Of a stretch of DNA of 64,000 bases, positions 25,451 to 59,360 are shown piece after piece. The stretch comes from the human T2T-CHM13v2.0 reference genome, Homo sapiens. How positions within the stretch are numbered: position 1 is the first letter of the stretch; every line of letters starts with the position of its first letter. The position numbers and the translations under genes were made by a program. The notes under the pieces are model-generated. The model did not search any database, was not told where the DNA came from, and was given only the letters and a program-made list of their open reading frames with translations. The stretch lies in NCBI RefSeq assembly GCF_009914755.1, contig NC_060927.1; one strand, given 5' to 3'.

Positions 25451-26334
25451 TGCTTCCAGAGCTCCAGCTGGCCTCCTCTTTGTCTGAGATAGGATGCAAG
25501 GAAGAGAGGATGAGTGTGGAAGTGAAGATGTTTGGAGATATTGTAGAATACAGGAAGTTGAAGTAATTCAGGCTGGAGGCTAGGTCATTCCCAGGAAAAT
25601 GTAAGGGATTCTACCTGCAGAGTTCGAAGGATGTGGGAATTCAACAGAGGAGCTACCAAGGAAGGGCCGACCAGGGGAGAGGGAGAGGAAAGTAGCCAAG
25701 GTGAGGCGAGCCAAGTGCCCAAACCATCAATGGCAGCATGTAGCGGTGCTCCAGAGGCAGAGAGAGGAGATCAAGAAACGTGGGGCGGAGAGGGGAGGGG
25801 AAGAGTTTGAGAAGAAACAGAATACGTCACAGTCTCAAAGCATCTCCCCCCAAATATTTATTAATTACAAAGGGAAAACTAGTCATTTTACAGTGGGGAA
25901 ACCAGCAGACATCACTATAACAAAGTGATCTCAAAATATTGTTTATTAAAAGAGACAATGAGACGAAGCTCCTGGCAAGGAATAAGTGACTAAACCATGG
26001 CTGTTCTGTGGTCTTTGCAGTAATAACAATATCCTAAATGACCTGCGGCCAAAAGATCTCCCCACCTCATCCCACCTCAGTGCCAGGTTCATCTGTGCTA
26101 ATGTATCACCGAGTCCTAAAGGATGACTGAGTCGTCCTTGGGTAACACGTGGTTAACGCGTGTGCATTTGACAGGGGTCTTCTGTAATAATGGGGTGATT
26201 CTCACGCGTGGGCGGGATTCAGGCACGGCAGCAGCATTGGGAGAAGTGCTTTGGGGCTGGGGTGAGAGGAGTTTGGGATCTCCACGGGTACTAGGTGCCC
26301 CCGCTGTCCTCTATGGTTGGGCTCTTGCGTGCGG

Positions 26335-26448
26335 CGGCAGATCCCGGGCGGCGCTTCGGCAGATCCTGGATGGCGCTTCGGCAGATCCTGGATGGCGCTT
26401 CGGCAGATCCTGGACGGCGCTTCGGCAGATCCTGGACGGCGCTTCGGC
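26335..26448. repeat. 22-bp tandem repeat x5 (cggcagatcctgga(t/c)ggcgctt)
   Basis: Five full units counted directly. Confidence 0.95.
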
Positions 26449-26724
26449 GGGGCTGGCCTCCCGCACACACTCGGGTCTCCAGAGTCGGGTGTGCGCGTTG
26501 GGGACGCTTCGTCCTGCAGTTGAACGCCCTGAAGCGGGAGAATCAGCGGCCTCCCCGACCCTGGCTGCGCTGTAGGGTCTATGAGCTCCTCTGCAGCGCC
26601 CGACCTCCTTCGCCAGCAGCCCCAGCCCCCTGCGCAGAACCAGTCTACGCGGACGCCGGAGTCCCCCTGGGCTGCTGGAGAGCCCGAAAGCTCCCGGGGC
26701 CGTGTCTTCTGGGAAACGCGCCAA

Positions 26725-26737
26725 TGCCCTCTAGTGG
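26725..26737 (-). promoter_or_regulatory. CTCF core motif CCACTAGAGGGCA
   Basis: Full match to CCASYAGRKGGCR. Confidence 0.75.
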
Positions 26738-27549
26738 GCGAGCTTTGAACTTCCCTGAGGCCCTACACTGACCTGAGCAGGGGAATTAAATCTCCCGAGC
26801 CTCACCCGTGTCTTGCCGAGAGCGGGGCGCAGTGCAGCCCTGGAAGGGCGGAGAGAGTGAGGATGGTGCACACCCGAACCAGCTGGGTCGAATCAGCCCC
26901 CTCCCAGGAGGGCGGCGTGGTCTCCTCCTGCCTCATCGTCCCCCTCCCCGTCCTTCACTCCTCCCAGCTAGAATTGGCACCATCCACTCTTCACTCTCCT
27001 TGAGCGAAAAGAAGGGAGACTTGAACACATCTATGCGCCAGGCAGCTTCACTTCTTCATCTGGAAGCTATTTCTAAAAAGGATTTGAAGTGATCACAAAG
27101 GCTTACAAGGGAACTAAAGAAAGATGGGGAAACAAAGACGCACGGGCTAGCACTGAAAATGTCTTAAGACCCTGAACGGTCACTAGACCCGGAGTAGAGA
27201 TAGGACGTTAAACTTCCAAACCCTTAGAGCGTTAAGAAAGACGAGACCGGGAAAACTCCAACAGTCCTTCAGGAATCAGGAACAAAAGACCAAGGCAAGG
27301 GGAAGCAAAAGAGGAAGGGGCAGGGAAGCCATGGTAACTAAAAATAGAAAGGAAGGACAAAAGGAGAAACCACGGAACAGAGCAAAATTACTGCAGACGG
27401 ATTAAACTCCCCTATTAAAAAAAAAAAAAGTAAAAAGCCTAAAACGGCCTATCTACCTAGCTTCTAAGATCCATAGCTGTAACAAAGTGACATTTAGAGT
27501 TTCAAAATAAAGAGGTCAGTGAGGATATACCAGGAAAGGGCTAACATCT

Positions 27550-28480
27550 GTACATCCCTCCAGTTGGGGGCCTAACTCTAAAATACAGCTCACTTCCACC
27601 TGTGTGTCTTCTTCGCCCCGGTGCCACTTCCTAAGGCACACCACAGTGACTTCCCACCTGTCCCATAGCTATAGCTTTCTAATTGGCGTCCTTAGCCCCC
27701 CTTGCCTTCCTCCCTACAAAGCACATATAATATTCTTTCAAAAACATAAATAAGAAGCTGGGCGTGGTGGCTCACGCCTGTAATCCTAGCACTTTGGGAG
27801 GCCAAGGTGGGTGGATCACCGGAGGTCAAGGGTTCGAGACTATCCTGGCGAACACGGTGAAACCCCATCTCCACCAAAAAATACAAAAAATTAGGTAAGT
27901 GTGGTGGCAGGCACCTGTAATCGCAGCTACTCGGGAGGCTGAGGCAGGAGAACCGCTTGAACCTGGGAGGTAGAGGTTGCAGTAAGCCGAGATCCTGCCA
28001 CTGCACTCCAGCCTCGGCGACAGAGCCAGACTCCATCTCAAAAAAAAAAAAAAAAAAAAAAAAAAAGCATAAATCTGGCTAAAGTCCTTCAATGTCTTCT
28101 TATGGCATTTAGAGTCAAGTTCAACCTTTTTACTCTGGCCTACAGCCCCCACCCCACCCCACTTTCTCTCACAACACCCTCTTCCCTTCTAGCTGCTGTC
28201 CCAGTGGCCTTCTTGCTGTTCTTCAAACCCACCCTGGCACACACTGTTCCCTCTGGCTGGAATGCCGTTCTTGGAGCTCTTCCTCTCCTTGCCTGGGTCC
28301 TAGCTTCAGGATCTCCCCTGGAGGAAATCCTTTCCTGGCCACTGTGTCTGGAGTGAGGCCCTTTGCCTAGCTACTCTTCATCACTGCTCTGTTTATTTCC
28401 TGCAGAGTACTTTTTACAGTCTGTGAATATCTTGTTTATTTATTTGCTTATTTATGTCTTCTCTAGTAGAATGTTTACTG
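27550..28480 (+). mobile_element. L2 fragment (Alu-interrupted), joined to an L1M remnant at about 27545
   Basis: L2 3'-region text such as 'gttccctctggctggaatgcc' and 'cttgtttatttatttg'. Confidence 0.6.
27756..28066 (+). mobile_element. AluS
   Basis: Full-length Alu with long poly(A). Confidence 0.95.
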
Positions 28481-57018: not shown

Positions 57019-57032
57019 GTGCCCTCTGGTGG
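57019..57032 (-). promoter_or_regulatory. CTCF core motif CCACCAGAGGGCAC
   Basis: Full match to CCASYAGRKGGCRS. Confidence 0.75.
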
Positions 57033-57243
57033 ATTTTCTCTGAACTTCTCTAGGTTTGAGGTTCCGCTTGTCCTTGACAGGTAAGCCGGCCCTGAGAATC
57101 CAACCGCCTGGCCTTCTTCGCTTTTGGTCAGCCCTCCGCCTTGCAGAGAGTGGGGCTCAGTGGGAGCTGAGGCTGTGTGAGGGTGAGGCTGGGGTCAGGC
57201 TGGGGAGGAGACTGATGTTGGGAGTCCGGAGGTACAGTTATTC

Positions 57244-57349
57244 CTGTACCTCTAGCAATAAGAACTGTGAGGTGGAAATGCCCATTTCAGTGATGGTGGA
57301 GAGAAACCAATGGAACCTGAATATAGGCAGCGACCCCTTAGGAAGCATC
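57244..57349 (+). repeat. 106-bp direct repeat, copy 1 (copy 2 at 59611-59716)
   Basis: Ungapped hand alignment, 92/106 identical. Confidence 0.95.
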
Positions 57350-58369
57350 TCCTCCTCCTCTTCCTCCTCCCCCTCCTCCTCCTCCTCCCCCTCCTCCTCC
57401 CCCTCCTCCTCCTCCTCCCCCTCCTCCTCCTCCTCCTCCCCCTCCTCTTCCTCCTCCTCCCCCTCCTCCTCCTCCCCCTCCCCCCCTCCTCCTCCCCTCC
57501 TCCTCCTCCCCCTCCCCCTCCTCCTCCTCCTCCTCCCTCTCCTCCCCCTCCTCCCTCTCCTCCCCCTCCTCCTCCTTCTCCCCCTCCTCCTCCCCCTCCT
57601 ACTCCTCCTCCCCTTCCTCCCCCTCCTCCTCCTTCTCCCCCTCCTCCCCCTCCTCCTCCTTCTCCCCCTCCCCTTCCTCCCCCTCCTCCTCCTTCTCCCC
57701 CTCCTCCCCCTCCTCCTCCTTCTCCCCCTCCCCCTCCTCCCCCTTCTCCCCCTCCCCCCTCCTCCCCCTTCTACTCCTCCTCCCCCTCCTCCCCCCTCCT
57801 CCTCCTCCTACTCCTCCTCCTCCTCCCCCTCCTACTCCTCCTCCTCCTCTCCTCCTCCTTCTCCCCCTCCTCCCCCTCCTCCTCCTCCCCCTCCTACTCC
57901 TCCTCCTCTCCCTCCTCCTCCTTCTCCTCCTCCTTCTCCCCCTCCTCCTCTCCCTCCTACTCCTCCTCCCCTTCCTCCCCCTCCACCTCCCCCTCTTCCC
58001 CCTCCTCCTCCTTCTCCCCCTCCTCCCCCTCCTCCCCCTCCTCCTCCTCCCCCTCCTCCCCCTCCTCCTCCTCCCCCTCCTCCCCCTCCTCCTCCTCCTT
58101 CTCCCCCTCCTACTCCTCCCCCTCCTACTCCTCCTCCTCCCCCTCCTACTCCTCCTCCCCTCCTCCTCCTTCTCCCCCTCCTCCTCCTCCCCCTCCTACT
58201 CCTCCTCCTCCCCCTCCTCCTCCTTCTCCTCCTCCTTCTCCCCCTCCTGCTCCTCCCCCTCCTACTCCTCTTCCTCCTACTCCTCCTGTTCCCCCCTCCT
58301 CCCTCTCCTCCTCCTCCCCCCTCCTCCTCCTCTCCCCTTCCTCCTCCTCCTCTGCTTTCTCTTCTTTTC
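57348..58369. repeat. ~1-kb (CCT)n/(CCCCCT)n polypyrimidine tract
   Basis: Almost purely C/T on the plus strand. Confidence 0.98.
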
Positions 58370-58732
58370 AGGCAGAAATGCCTCCACAGATTCCCTTATT
58401 ATCCATGTAGAAAGGGAAGAAAGACATGAATGCTTGTATGTCAGATATGTTACAAGTAACTTGTTTAAAAGGGGAAAAGAAAATAGGGGAAGAGATAAGA
58501 AACAAGACAATAAATCTAGAAAATCAGGAATGAGAATAAAGATAACAACCAGAAAAGCAACAACAACGCAGAGATAGAAATCAAAACAAAAGCGATCTCA
58601 GTAATCATGAATAGATTAAATTATCCATCCTCTGCATACGAAAATACGAATATTTTAAATTTAGCTATTTCTTGTTAATAAAGATGACACATAAGGCCAA
58701 GATTCTCTTATACTAGGCAAATACTAGCATAT

Positions 58733-59360
58733 GCACATCCAATCCATCAGCAAGTCTTGCTGGCTCTGTACCCAAAACACATCCCAAATCCATCTTCCCT
58801 GCTAGCACCACTGCCCAAGCTACCATCATCTCTTGTTTGAATGATTCCAGGAGCTTCCCAACCCATCGGCTGGGTTCTCCTGTTACTCCCCTGTAATCCA
58901 GATTCCACACAGTAACACAGTGGGTTTCTTTTCTTTTCTTTTTCCTTTTTTGAGACAGAGTCTTGCTCTTGTTGCCCAGGCTGAAGTGCAATGGTGCAAT
59001 CTCAGCTCACTGCAACCCCCGCCTCCTGGGTTCAAGCGATTCTCCTGCCTCAGCCTCCCAAGTAGCTGGGATTACAGGTGCCCGCCACCACACCCAGATA
59101 ATTTTTTGTATTTAGTAGAGACGGTGTTTCACCATGTTGGCCAAGCTGGTCTCGAACACCTGACCTCAGGTGATCCACCCGCCTCAGCCTCTCAAAGTGC
59201 TGGGATTACAGGTAGGAGCCACCGCACCTGGCCCACAGTGTTCTTTTGAAATCAGAAATCAAATCACGTTGCCATCCCTGCCCCCTGGTTTAATGATACT
59301 TCATGTGGCCCCCATTTCACTTGACATAAAATCCAAAGTCCTTTCTGCAGCCTATGCAAC
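58733..59360 (+). mobile_element. L2 fragment (Alu-interrupted), joined to an L1M remnant
   Basis: 'cacatccaatccatcagcaagtc...cccaagctaccatcatctctt...ataaaatccaaagtcctt'. Confidence 0.75.
58925..59233 (-). mobile_element. AluS
   Basis: Reverse full-length Alu. Confidence 0.95.

What the first reader, a model, noticed from the sequence alone, without database searches (positions are those of the whole stretch)
26039..59360. Hidden ancient duplication of a CTCF-bearing module, 30.3 kb apart, with divergent CpG fate
Seen, by hand alignment of copy A (26039 to ~28150) and copy B (56334 to ~59360), same strand and colinear: caaaagat..tccccacc..acctcag; exact atctgtgctaatgt (26091 / 56381); ccttgggta...gtggttaac..gtgtgc.ttt at 29/34 (26136 / 56424); gtcct..a.tt.aa..ccc.gaagc.gg; aggg.ct.tgagc.cc at 13/16 (26574 / 56844); CTCF core plus 5 bp plus ct.tgaacttc.ct (26725 / 57020); g.cttgc.gagag.ggggc.cagtg at 21/25 (26810 / 57138); and the same chimeric L1M-to-L2 junction at 24/32 (27526 / 58709). 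The shared junction argues for a segmental duplication rather than two copies of one transposon. Copy A is a CpG island and copy B has lost many CpGs, yet both keep a perfect CTCF core. Each copy later grew its own tandem repeats (22-mer in A; TG and CCT tracts in B). Inference: an old duplication multiplied an insulator/enhancer module, and motif blocks were preferentially preserved.
Basis: partly seen in the sequence, partly recalled or inferred. Interest (0 to 1): 0.8.

Follow-up and report, generated by a model that had tools for sequence, protein, structure and literature searches.

The report
Old local duplicate carrying CTCF site
A stretch of non-coding DNA upstream of EPHB3 that carries a CTCF-type insulator motif was copied about 30 kb away very long ago, and both copies still keep the motif, which is a tidy example of how neighbouring insulator sites can arise but not a new kind of element.

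Summary
The similarity is real. Copy A (26033-27728) and copy B (56328-58889) are colinear on the same strand. The best block is 100/146 identical (E 2e-13; 0 of 200 shuffles reach its score). A second block holding the CTCF core lies on the same diagonal. The key blocks occur only twice in the 3.1 Gb genome, so this is not a transposon family.

A profile built from 7 unrelated genomic copies of an old repeat (L2-like by recall) hits only two places in the window. These are A 27566-27728 and B 58734-58889, in the same register. The "L1M" label could not be verified.

Copy A is a CpG island (o/e 0.74). Copy B is at background (0.31). Both keep a reverse-strand CTCF core (12/13), an unconserved 5-bp linker (0/5) and a conserved 14-mer (12/14).

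Conservation is patchy. The blocks are about 70% identical, while the repeat-derived part is at saturation (53/112). Selection, old gene conversion and lack of CpG in the core all fit that pattern. CTCF binding and insulator function were not tested.

The locus also holds other old local duplications, including a TEDDM3P paralogue. Verdict: a real ancient segmental duplication, a new member of a known kind, of moderate interest.

The parts
26033..26205 (+). Copy A, block 1 (best conserved; holds CACGTG and GTTAAC words)
   Evidence: nhmmer 26033-26203 vs 56328-56501, E 2.6e-12; blastn 100/146 identities, E 2e-13; 0 of 200 shuffles reach the score.
56328..56503 (+). Copy B, block 1. All 3 differences between N-free pattern positions in the 30-mer are CpG to TpG/CpA changes.
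   Evidence: The pattern is found only at A and B in the 3.1 Gb genome at up to 3 mismatches.
26190..26950 (.). CpG island of copy A
   Evidence: 761 bp, GC 66.5%, 62 CpG, observed/expected 0.74. It overlaps RefSeq 'enhancer' features 26411-26911 and 26615-26909 (hub table).
26335..26448 (+). 22-mer tandem array, present in A only
   Evidence: TRF: period 22, 5.2 copies, 95% matches. No similarity to B's GT tract at the same relative place (z -1.6).
56643..56716 (+). GT-rich tract, present in B only, at the same relative position as A's 22-mer array
   Evidence: TRF.
26510..26866 (+). Copy A, second homologous segment (pre-CTCF, CTCF block, post-CTCF block)
   Evidence: nhmmer 26510-26866 vs 56778-57192, E 6.9e-6. 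Segment z-scores are 7.5 for the CTCF block and 3.7 for the post-CTCF block.
56778..57192 (+). Copy B, second homologous segment
26725..26737 (-). CTCF core consensus in A (CCACTAGAGGGCA)
   Evidence: Exact match to CCASYAGRKGGCR (an IUPAC form recalled from memory). There are 3 matches in the window against 0.10 expected.
57020..57032 (-). CTCF core consensus in B (CCACCAGAGGGCA)
   Evidence: It differs from A only at the degenerate Y position.
26743..26756 (-). Conserved 14-mer, 5 bp upstream (on the motif strand) of the A core; candidate upstream ZF9-11 motif
   Evidence: 12/14 identical to B while the 5-bp linker is 0/5. Core plus 14-mer occurs only at A and B genome-wide, plus one chance-level hit.
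57038..57051 (-). The same 14-mer in B
26921..26965 (+). Short CT-rich stretch in A, at the position of B's 1-kb tract
   Evidence: blastn at about 80% to many positions of 57349-58352; nhmmer 26943-27036 vs 58346-58441. This is low-complexity sequence, so the evidence is weak.
57349..58352 (+). CTCCTC/CCT tract of about 1 kb, expanded in B only
   Evidence: TRF score 1196.
27338..27639 (+). Copy A, segment spanning the junction between A-rich sequence and the old repeat
   Evidence: nhmmer vs 58510-58823, E 3.9e-4, on the expected diagonal of about 31172. Global z-scores are 3.0 and 2.7.
58510..58823 (+). Copy B, the same junction-spanning segment
27566..27728 (+). Old interspersed-repeat fragment in A (L2 3'-end-like; the family name is recalled, not tested)
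   Evidence: A profile of 7 unrelated genomic copies matches it at profile positions 166-337, E 9.8e-5.
58734..58889 (+). The same repeat fragment in B, same strand and register
   Evidence: Matches profile positions 141-301, E 1.3e-21. Seven other genomic copies were found.
27757..28066 (+). Alu inserted into A's repeat fragment after the duplication
   Evidence: Rfam SRP-like match; blastn to other Alus; flanking repeat seen.
58925..59232 (-). Alu inserted into B's repeat fragment after the duplication, at another site and on the other strand
59512..59734 (+). B': younger partial copy of B 57136-57367 (post-CTCF block to the start of the CT tract); it has no CTCF core
   Evidence: nhmmer E 1e-25. 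The best 121 bp are 84% identical. Only these two copies exist genome-wide.

Best explanation
A non-coding segment of at least about 1.7 kb (present-day length in A) was duplicated locally, in direct orientation, upstream of EPHB3. The segment already held an old LINE-type repeat fragment. This happened long enough ago that neutral parts of the two copies are now at saturation, probably around or before the eutherian radiation. The dating is an inference.

Since then each copy took its own Alu and grew its own tandem arrays. Copy A stayed an unmethylated-type CpG island. Copy B lost its CpGs to background level.

Three patches stayed recognisable. One of them is a bipartite CTCF-type site on the minus strand: a core, an unconserved 5-bp linker, and a conserved flank where the ZF9-11 upstream motif would sit.

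The most likely working model, which is inferred and not shown, is that both copies still bind CTCF in the same orientation. They would then act as redundant reverse-oriented loop anchors or insulators on the centromere-proximal side of EPHB3, together with a third reverse-strand core at 54116-54128. Neither core contains a CpG. That would let copy B bind CTCF even in methylated, CpG-poor DNA.
For: The duplication is real:
- Searches give E 2e-13, 0 of 200 shuffles, the top four of 7000 diagonals, and a global score of 164.8 against 81.5+-8.4.

It is not a repeat family:
- The 30-mer pattern has 2 hits in 3.1 Gb at up to 3 mismatches, with 0 control hits.
- The CTCF-plus-flank pattern hits A, B and one site at 3 mismatches, against 1 control hit.
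- The same tool returns 2163 candidates for a true repeat at 18700-18990.
- A+B profiles find no third copy in the window.

The segment included an older repeat:
- The profile from 7 unrelated copies hits only A 27566-27728 and B 58734-58889 in 128 kb of both strands. Both hits are on the same strand, at profile starts 166 and 141, on diagonal ~31180-31193.
- An nhmmer HSP crosses the junction.

The duplication is old:
- The two Alus lie at different sites and on different strands.
- The repeat part is 53/112 identical between A and B. That is no more than A against unrelated copies, which give 42-57 identical of 95-112 columns.
- The conserved blocks are 172/245 identical, K2P 0.38.

CpG fate: o/e is 0.74 in A and 0.31 in B, and the window as a whole is 0.31.

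CTCF:
- There are 3 exact consensus cores in the window, all on the minus strand, against 0.10 expected.
- The core is 12/13 identical, the linker 0/5 and the flank 12/14.
- In passages of PMC12885311, a roughly 5-bp non-specific linker and an upstream motif are described as typical of insulator-type sites. Passages of PMC11417384 say the upstream motif strengthens binding and blocking.
- Copy A overlaps RefSeq 'enhancer' features (hub table).
Against: - No binding, methylation or cross-species data were available, so function and selection are inferred only.
- The conserved flank matches the published upstream consensus CAGCTGTTCC at only 5/10 positions in A and 6/10 in B. This is my own count against the consensus quoted.
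- The spacers between blocks show no detectable homology (z 1.2, -1.6, 0.7, 0.3). Patches could therefore reflect later gene conversion rather than constraint.
- The CTCF core has no CpG, so it would escape the fastest decay without any selection.
- The A-B identity in the repeat part gives no positive sign of shared post-insertion history. The case for a shared repeat rests on position, strand and register only.
- Copy B carries no RefSeq functional element.
- The profile's reference copies were found using copy B as query, which biases the B scores upwards.
Confidence: 0.85

Rival explanations
1. The duplication is real, but the patchy conservation is not due to selection on motifs. Under this reading the better-kept patches are tracts of old interlocus gene conversion, or a later partial re-copying. 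Alternatively they are simply stretches that are poor in CpG and free of unstable repeats, so that they decayed more slowly.
For: - The locus is prone to re-copying. B' (59512-59734) is a younger partial copy of B 57136-57367, and several other local duplications exist.
- The CTCF cores contain no CpG.
- The spacers in A are very CpG-rich and hold tandem arrays.
Against: - Block 1 of A holds 6 CpGs and is still the best conserved block.
- The fine pattern of core 12/13, linker 0/5 and flank 12/14 follows the known bipartite layout of CTCF sites, which conversion would not produce.
- The single core difference falls on a degenerate motif position.
Confidence: 0.25
2. A and B are the decayed CpG-island promoters or 5' ends of two members of a tandemly duplicated gene cluster, such as TEDDM-like genes or an lncRNA. 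Under this reading the CTCF site is incidental to promoter function.
For: - The window holds an old colinear duplication with TEDDM3P (a DUF716 match, E 3.8e-5) and a paralogue at 20655-21393.
- Module A lies 4.6 kb from that paralogue, on the side where a minus-strand gene's promoter would be.
- A is a CpG island.
Against: - No TEDDM-like remnant was found near B by tblastn or by U1+U2 profiles.
- No module copy was found near TEDDM3P itself.
- No annotated exon or transcription start overlaps A or B (hub table).
- Indels in block 1 are not multiples of three.
Confidence: 0.15
3. A and B are two surviving copies of a rare or extinct interspersed repeat, or the two LTRs of one very old provirus, and not a segmental duplication.
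For: - The two copies have the same orientation and comparable length.
- Very old families can be missed by the searches used. The genome DNA search did not even recover B when queried with A.
Against: - Only two copies of the two best patterns exist in 3.1 Gb.
- Colinearity runs through unique sequence, a CT-rich stretch and a fragment of a different, common repeat in the same register.
- The two copies are 30 kb apart, which is far more than a provirus.
- No terminal hallmarks were seen.
Confidence: 0.04
4. The similarity is due to chance or to base composition.
Against: - E 2e-13, with 0 of 200 shuffles reaching the score.
- The second and third blocks lie on the same diagonal.
- The global z-score is about 10.
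Confidence: 0.01

Closest known systems
Ancient local (intrachromosomal) segmental duplication giving paralogous non-coding elements
   Same: There are two copies only, in direct orientation 30 kb apart. They are colinear through unique and repeat-derived sequence, with later lineage-specific insertions (Alus, tandem arrays).
   Different: At about 70% identity in the best patches it is far below the 90% identity threshold used for catalogued human segmental duplications (a definition I recall, not checked here). It would therefore not appear in such catalogues. Only patches are still alignable.
Clustered same-orientation CTCF sites at domain borders (Kentepozidou et al. 2020, PMC6945661; passages read)
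   Same: Three consensus cores lie within 31 kb, all on the minus strand. That paper reports that newly gained sites usually share the orientation of their conserved neighbours, and it sees clusters as redundancy.
   Different: Their clusters are defined as sites less than 10 kb apart, whereas A and B are 30 kb apart. The paper's main text does not contain the word 'duplication'. Here the origin of two of the sites by copying can be read from the sequence. Occupancy at this locus is untested.
Bipartite CTCF sites with an upstream ZF9-11 motif (PMC12885311 and PMC11417384; passages read)
   Same: A core is followed by a roughly 5-bp non-conserved linker and then a conserved flank on the upstream side of the motif strand.
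   Different: The flank matches the quoted consensus CAGCTGTTCC at only 5-6 of 10 positions (the shared part is GTTC). It may be a weak upstream motif, or the site of a different factor.
CTCF sites spread by transposable elements (e.g. SINE B2 in rodents; cited in PMC13399162 passages)
   Same: A CTCF motif is multiplied by copying DNA.
   Different: The carrier here is not a mobile family. Only two copies exist in the genome.

Membership tests
Segmental (local) duplication | Sequence similarity between the two places beyond chance | tested here: met
   E 2e-13; 0 of 200 shuffles; global score 164.8 against 81.5+-8.4.
Segmental (local) duplication | Colinearity over several separate blocks on the same strand | tested here: met
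   HSPs lie at 26033, 26510, 26943 and 27338 in A and at 56328, 56778, 58346 and 58510 in B. The diagonals run from 30268 to 31403, and the shift is explained by B's 1-kb CCT tract.
Segmental (local) duplication | Copy number limited to the paralogues, not dispersed | tested here: met
   as a positive control for a true repeat.
Segmental (local) duplication | Older inserted repeat shared at the same place and in the same register in both copies | tested here: met
   The profile hits only A 27566-27728 and B 58734-58889, on the same strand, at profile starts 166 and 141. Sequence identity adds no support (53/112). The L1M half of the claimed junction is not verified.
Interspersed repeat family (transposon, LTR) | Many dispersed copies in the genome | tested here: not met
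   Only A and B were found, plus one chance-level hit.
Interspersed repeat family (transposon, LTR) | Match to a curated repeat library (Dfam/Repbase) | not testable with these tools
   No repeat library was on hand. Rfam gave only Alu-derived matches.
CTCF binding site | Match to the core consensus | tested here: met
   Both copies match CCASYAGRKGGCR exactly (IUPAC form recalled). There are 3 matches in the window against 0.10 expected.
CTCF binding site | Upstream ZF9-11 motif at about 5 bp from the core region | tested here: inconclusive
   The position and the diverged linker fit. The sequence matches CAGCTGTTCC at 5/10 positions in A and 6/10 in B (consensus; my own count).
CTCF binding site | CTCF/cohesin occupancy in cells | not testable with these tools
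   No ChIP-seq data were available.
CpG island (length over 200 bp, GC over 50%, o/e over 0.6; criteria recalled) | Composition thresholds | tested here: met
   A 26190-26950 is 761 bp, GC 66.5%, o/e 0.74. Copy B does not meet them (GC 54%, o/e 0.31).
Known RNA family | Covariance-model match in the module | tested here: not met
   Only SRP, mir-1268 and mir-3135 matches were found, all inside the Alus.

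The most novel reading that the evidence does not exclude
Two paralogous bipartite CTCF insulator sites, born by one local duplication more than about 100 million years ago, have both been kept by selection as redundant same-orientation boundary elements upstream of EPHB3. 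The surrounding DNA meanwhile took opposite epigenetic fates: one copy is a CpG island with regulatory activity, the other is methylated and CpG-poor. This would be a sequence-level demonstration that CTCF site clusters at domain borders can arise by local duplication rather than by transposons or point mutation. It would also show that a CpG-free core lets a site outlive the loss of its island.
Probability: 0.3. Interest if true: 0.5.

Novelty: new member of a known kind. Interest (0 to 1): 0.35.

Why it matters
Clusters of CTCF sites in one orientation are thought to make domain borders robust, and their origin is usually put down to transposons or to new point mutations. Here the sequence itself shows that two such motifs, 30 kb apart, descend from one ancestral site through a local duplication. 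The duplication is too old to appear in segmental-duplication catalogues.

If both sites are bound, the pair is a natural experiment in two ways. It tests redundancy through single and double deletion next to EPHB3. It also tests whether a CTCF site depends on its CpG-island context. If the sites are not bound, this is just one more decayed duplication in a duplication-prone stretch.

Tried and rejected
- Genome DNA search with block 1 of A found only itself, not even B, so the tool is too insensitive at 68% identity. I used degenerate patterns instead.
- Direct A-B local alignment of the downstream part was not significant, either as it stands or with the Alus cut out. nhmmer with the single A or B repeat fragments found only themselves.
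- Four loci found with A 28075-28480 shared only about 100 bp with A and nothing with B, so they were useless as a bridge.
- The L1M label was tested in several ways. tblastn and blastn against a young genomic L1 gave only weak, non-significant hits: A 27486-27546 at E 0.064, and 'GLNSPIK'-type hits at E 0.47. nhmmer with the same L1 hit four other places in the window, but neither A nor B. Older L1 fragments of the window used as bridges gave only Alu hits. Genome searches with both A-rich parts found only themselves.
- The hit 18705-18818 vs 48519-48638 first looked like an extension of the duplication to 10 kb or more. It is a common interspersed repeat with 2163 candidates, so I rejected that reading.
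- I looked for a TEDDM-like remnant near B and found none. I looked for a third module copy in the window and found none.
- Upstream extension rests only on a GA-rich low-complexity match (score 20, reached by 6 of 200 shuffles). I did not count it.
- A full-window nhmmer scan timed out. I repeated it on restricted and Alu-masked sequence.
- Paper searches for LINC01839/LINC01840/TEDDM3P (5 papers; 4 listings seen) and for EPHB3 + CTCF + TAD boundary (2 listings seen) showed nothing in their titles or abstract openings about this element; none of these papers was opened.

Full report
**Observation**

I read both stretches and aligned them.
- A sensitive blastn of 25800-28400 against 56100-59600 gives one non-Alu, non-low-complexity, same-strand match. 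It is 26039-26181 vs 56334-56470, with 100 of 146 columns identical, 12 gap columns and E 2e-13.
- A weaker match is 26687-26756 vs 56980-57051, 65% over 72 columns, E 0.004.
- The other strong matches are Alus, or the CT-rich stretch 26922-26965 against B's CCT tract.
- In a self-blast of the whole window (3067 HSPs), this pair is the only one on the 29-32.5 kb diagonals that is single-copy. Its mean coverage by other hits is 1.0, against 36 or more for all the others, which are Alus.

**Statistics**

- The Smith-Waterman score of block 1 is 44, against 8.3+-1.3 for 200 dinucleotide shuffles, and none reach it.
- The best local alignment in the part after the tandem arrays is 26687-26757 vs 56980-57052. 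It scores 20 against 12.8+-1.8, reached by 1 of 200 shuffles. It lies on diagonal 30293-30295, the same as block 1.
- I counted 24-base windows with at least 17 matches over 7000 diagonals. The four richest diagonals are 30288, 30290, 30295 and 30328.
- A global alignment of 26039-26960 with 56334-57343 scores 164.8, against 81.5+-8.4 and a maximum of 101.4 over 100 shuffles.
- Cut into segments, the signal is patchy. Block 1 has z 13.3, the CTCF block z 7.5 and the post-CTCF block z 3.7.
- The three spacers and the tail give z 1.2, -1.6, 0.7 and 0.3.
- The segment boundaries were chosen after I had seen the local alignments, so these z-values are somewhat flattering.
- nhmmer is more sensitive.
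- nhmmer also finds 26943-27036 with 58346-58441 and 27338-27639 with 58510-58823 (E 3.9e-4).
- All these HSPs lie on one colinear chain, whose offset grows by about the length of B's CCT tract.

**Not a repeat family**

- The pattern CCTTGGGTANCANGTGGTTAACNNGTGTGC, with up to three mismatches, occurs twice in the 3.1 Gb genome, at A and B. The reversed control gives none.
- The CTCF core plus flank pattern occurs at A and B exactly. It also occurs once on chromosome 10 with three mismatches, and the control gives one hit, so that one is chance.
- The same genome tool returns 2163 candidates for a genuine interspersed repeat at 18700-18990. It does see real families.
- Profiles built from A plus B find no third copy in the window.
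- Rfam finds only Alu-derived matches.

**The shared junction**

Direct A-B alignment downstream of the module is not significant. I therefore looked for a bridge.
- B 58700-58914 has seven other matches in the genome. A profile of those seven copies hits only two places in the whole window, both strands included.
- The two places are B 58734-58889 (profile positions 141-301, E 1.3e-21) and A 27566-27728 (positions 166-337, E 9.8e-5).
- Both copies therefore carry the same part of the same old repeat, on the same strand.
- By recall the repeat looks like the 3' part of LINE-2. I could not test the name.
- My rough estimate of the chance that a second detectable fragment falls on the right strand within 150 bp of the colinear place is about 0.002. 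This is inference, not a computed test.
- The A-B identity in this repeat is 53 of 112 shared profile columns. That is no higher than A against the seven unrelated copies, which give 42-57 identical of 95-112 columns.
- So the sequence gives no extra sign of common descent. Neutral divergence between the copies is at saturation.
- The left half of the claimed junction, the 'L1M' part, could not be confirmed by any route. The best hit was E 0.064 for A and nothing for B.

**Age**

- The two Alus inside the repeat fragments sit at different positions and on opposite strands. They came after the duplication.
- The three significant blocks together are 172 of 245 aligned positions identical, a Kimura distance of 0.38.
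- Taken as neutral, that is of the order of the eutherian radiation. This rests on rates I recall, so it is inference.
- The repeat-derived part is much more diverged than the blocks, so the event is probably older and the blocks evolve more slowly than the rest.

**CpG fate and tandem arrays**

- A 26190-26950 has GC 66.5%, 62 CpGs and o/e 0.74.
- B 56334-57343 has GC 54% and o/e 0.31, which equals the whole window.
- In the 30-mer of block 1, all three differences at the pattern's N positions are CpG in A against TpG or CpA in B.
- TRF confirms the 22-mer array in A and the GT and CCT tracts in B.
- A's 22-mer array and B's GT tract sit at the same relative place but are not alignable.
- B's 1-kb CCT tract sits where A has a 45-bp CT-rich stretch, so its seed looks ancestral. 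This is low-complexity sequence and the evidence is weak.

**The CTCF site**

- The consensus CCASYAGRKGGCR, which I recalled from memory, has three exact matches in the window, all on the minus strand. They are at 26725-26737, 54116-54128 and 57020-57032, against 0.10 expected.
- Read on the minus strand, A and B share a 14-mer (12/14 identical), then a 5-bp linker with no identity (0/5), then the core (12/13). The one core difference falls at the degenerate Y position.
- Passages of PMC12885311 describe CTCF sites of the insulator type as a core plus an upstream motif resembling CAGCTGTTCC. The upstream motif is bound by zinc fingers 9-11 across a non-specific linker, typically of 5 bp, and is present in 13-15% of sites.
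- Passages of PMC11417384 report that this motif strengthens binding and enhancer blocking.
- The layout here fits, but the 14-mer matches that consensus at only 5-6 of 10 positions. I count this as inconclusive.
- Neither core holds a CpG.

**Mechanism**

Shown:
- An old direct duplication of a composite non-coding segment.
- Divergent CpG content in the two copies.
- Mosaic conservation.
- A retained consensus CTCF core with a conserved flank in both copies.

Inferred:
- Both copies bind CTCF in reverse orientation.
- Together with 54116-54128 they act as redundant anchors for loops running towards lower coordinates, away from EPHB3.
- The CpG-free core lets B stay competent in methylated DNA.

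Rivals for the mosaic pattern are old gene conversion or re-copying, and slower decay of CpG-poor patches. The locus clearly does re-copy. B' at 59512-59734 is a younger partial copy of B 57136-57367, 84% identical over the best 121 bp. Only these two copies exist genome-wide, and B' has no CTCF core.

**Context**

- An Alu-masked nhmmer self-scan shows a second colinear series. It pairs 8101-8163, 8630-8955, 9998-10217, 11418-11939, 12083-12379 and perhaps 14645-14997 with 18062-18127, 18133-18530, 19237-19456, 20655-21093, 21097-21393 and 25414-25778.
- That series contains TEDDM3P, whose reading frame matches DUF716 at E 3.8e-5. Its paralogue now lies under LINC01839 exons. Identity in MAFFT alignments is 51-62%.
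- Module A follows directly after this series.
- No TEDDM-like remnant was found near B, so I cannot say that A and B belong to copies of a gene unit.

**Comparison and novelty**

- This is an ancient segmental duplication, far below the identity at which such duplications are catalogued.
- It resembles the clustered, same-orientation CTCF sites described at domain borders (PMC6945661, passages). The main text of that paper does not use the word 'duplication'.
- It differs from transposon-borne CTCF sites in having just two copies.
- My paper searches found nothing about this element: (listings only), from which passages of PMC13399162 and PMC6945661 were read. These searches cover only the held open-access library.
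- I rate it a new member of a known kind. Interest is moderate if both sites turn out to be bound and constrained, and low otherwise.

Noticed in passing
8101-15000 and 18062-25780: This is a second, very old colinear same-strand duplication, offset 9.0-10.8 kb. Six nhmmer pairs support it, the best being 11418-11939 vs 20655-21093 at E 1.5e-13. It contains the TEDDM3P pseudogene (DUF716-like frame), and its paralogue now lies under LINC01839 exons 20250-21218 and 21341-21514.
   Followed up: partly
57136-57367 and 59512-59734: This is a younger direct duplicate 2.4 kb apart, 84% identical over the best 121 bp, with only these two copies in the genome. It copies the post-CTCF block and the start of the CT-rich stretch before that stretch expanded. 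It brackets the CCT tract, the A-rich part, the old repeat fragment and an Alu. How it arose is unexplained.
   Followed up: partly
54116-54128 (minus strand): A third exact CTCF core consensus (CCAGCAGGGGGCG) lies 2.2 kb upstream of copy B, in the same orientation as the two paralogous cores. No counterpart was found near copy A.
   Followed up: partly
14729-16010: A large tandem array shows self-matches at offsets 300, 420, 690 and 900 with E down to 1e-95. It lies where a module copy would be expected if the 9-10 kb duplication had included one. None was detected.
   Followed up: no
33795-34992 vs 35887-37035; 29161-29256 vs 36994-37092; 34404-34549 vs 42250-42403: There are further non-Alu same-strand self-matches at offsets of about 2.0 kb and about 7.84 kb. 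The best is 34405-34992 vs 36411-37035 at E 1.5e-8. They lie close to the RefSeq enhancers at 37815-39422. I did not check whether they are repeats or duplications.
   Followed up: no
18700-18990, 29628-29841, 48519-48638: These are three copies of a common interspersed repeat of about 290 bp, with 2163 candidate places genome-wide and 74-79% identity to other copies. At first they mimicked an extension of the A/B duplication.
   Followed up: yes
54998-55073: A perfect 26-mer tandem repeat is present (2.9 copies, 100% matches), and a long GA/GGAA-rich low-complexity stretch at 55478-55702 lies just upstream of copy B.
   Followed up: no
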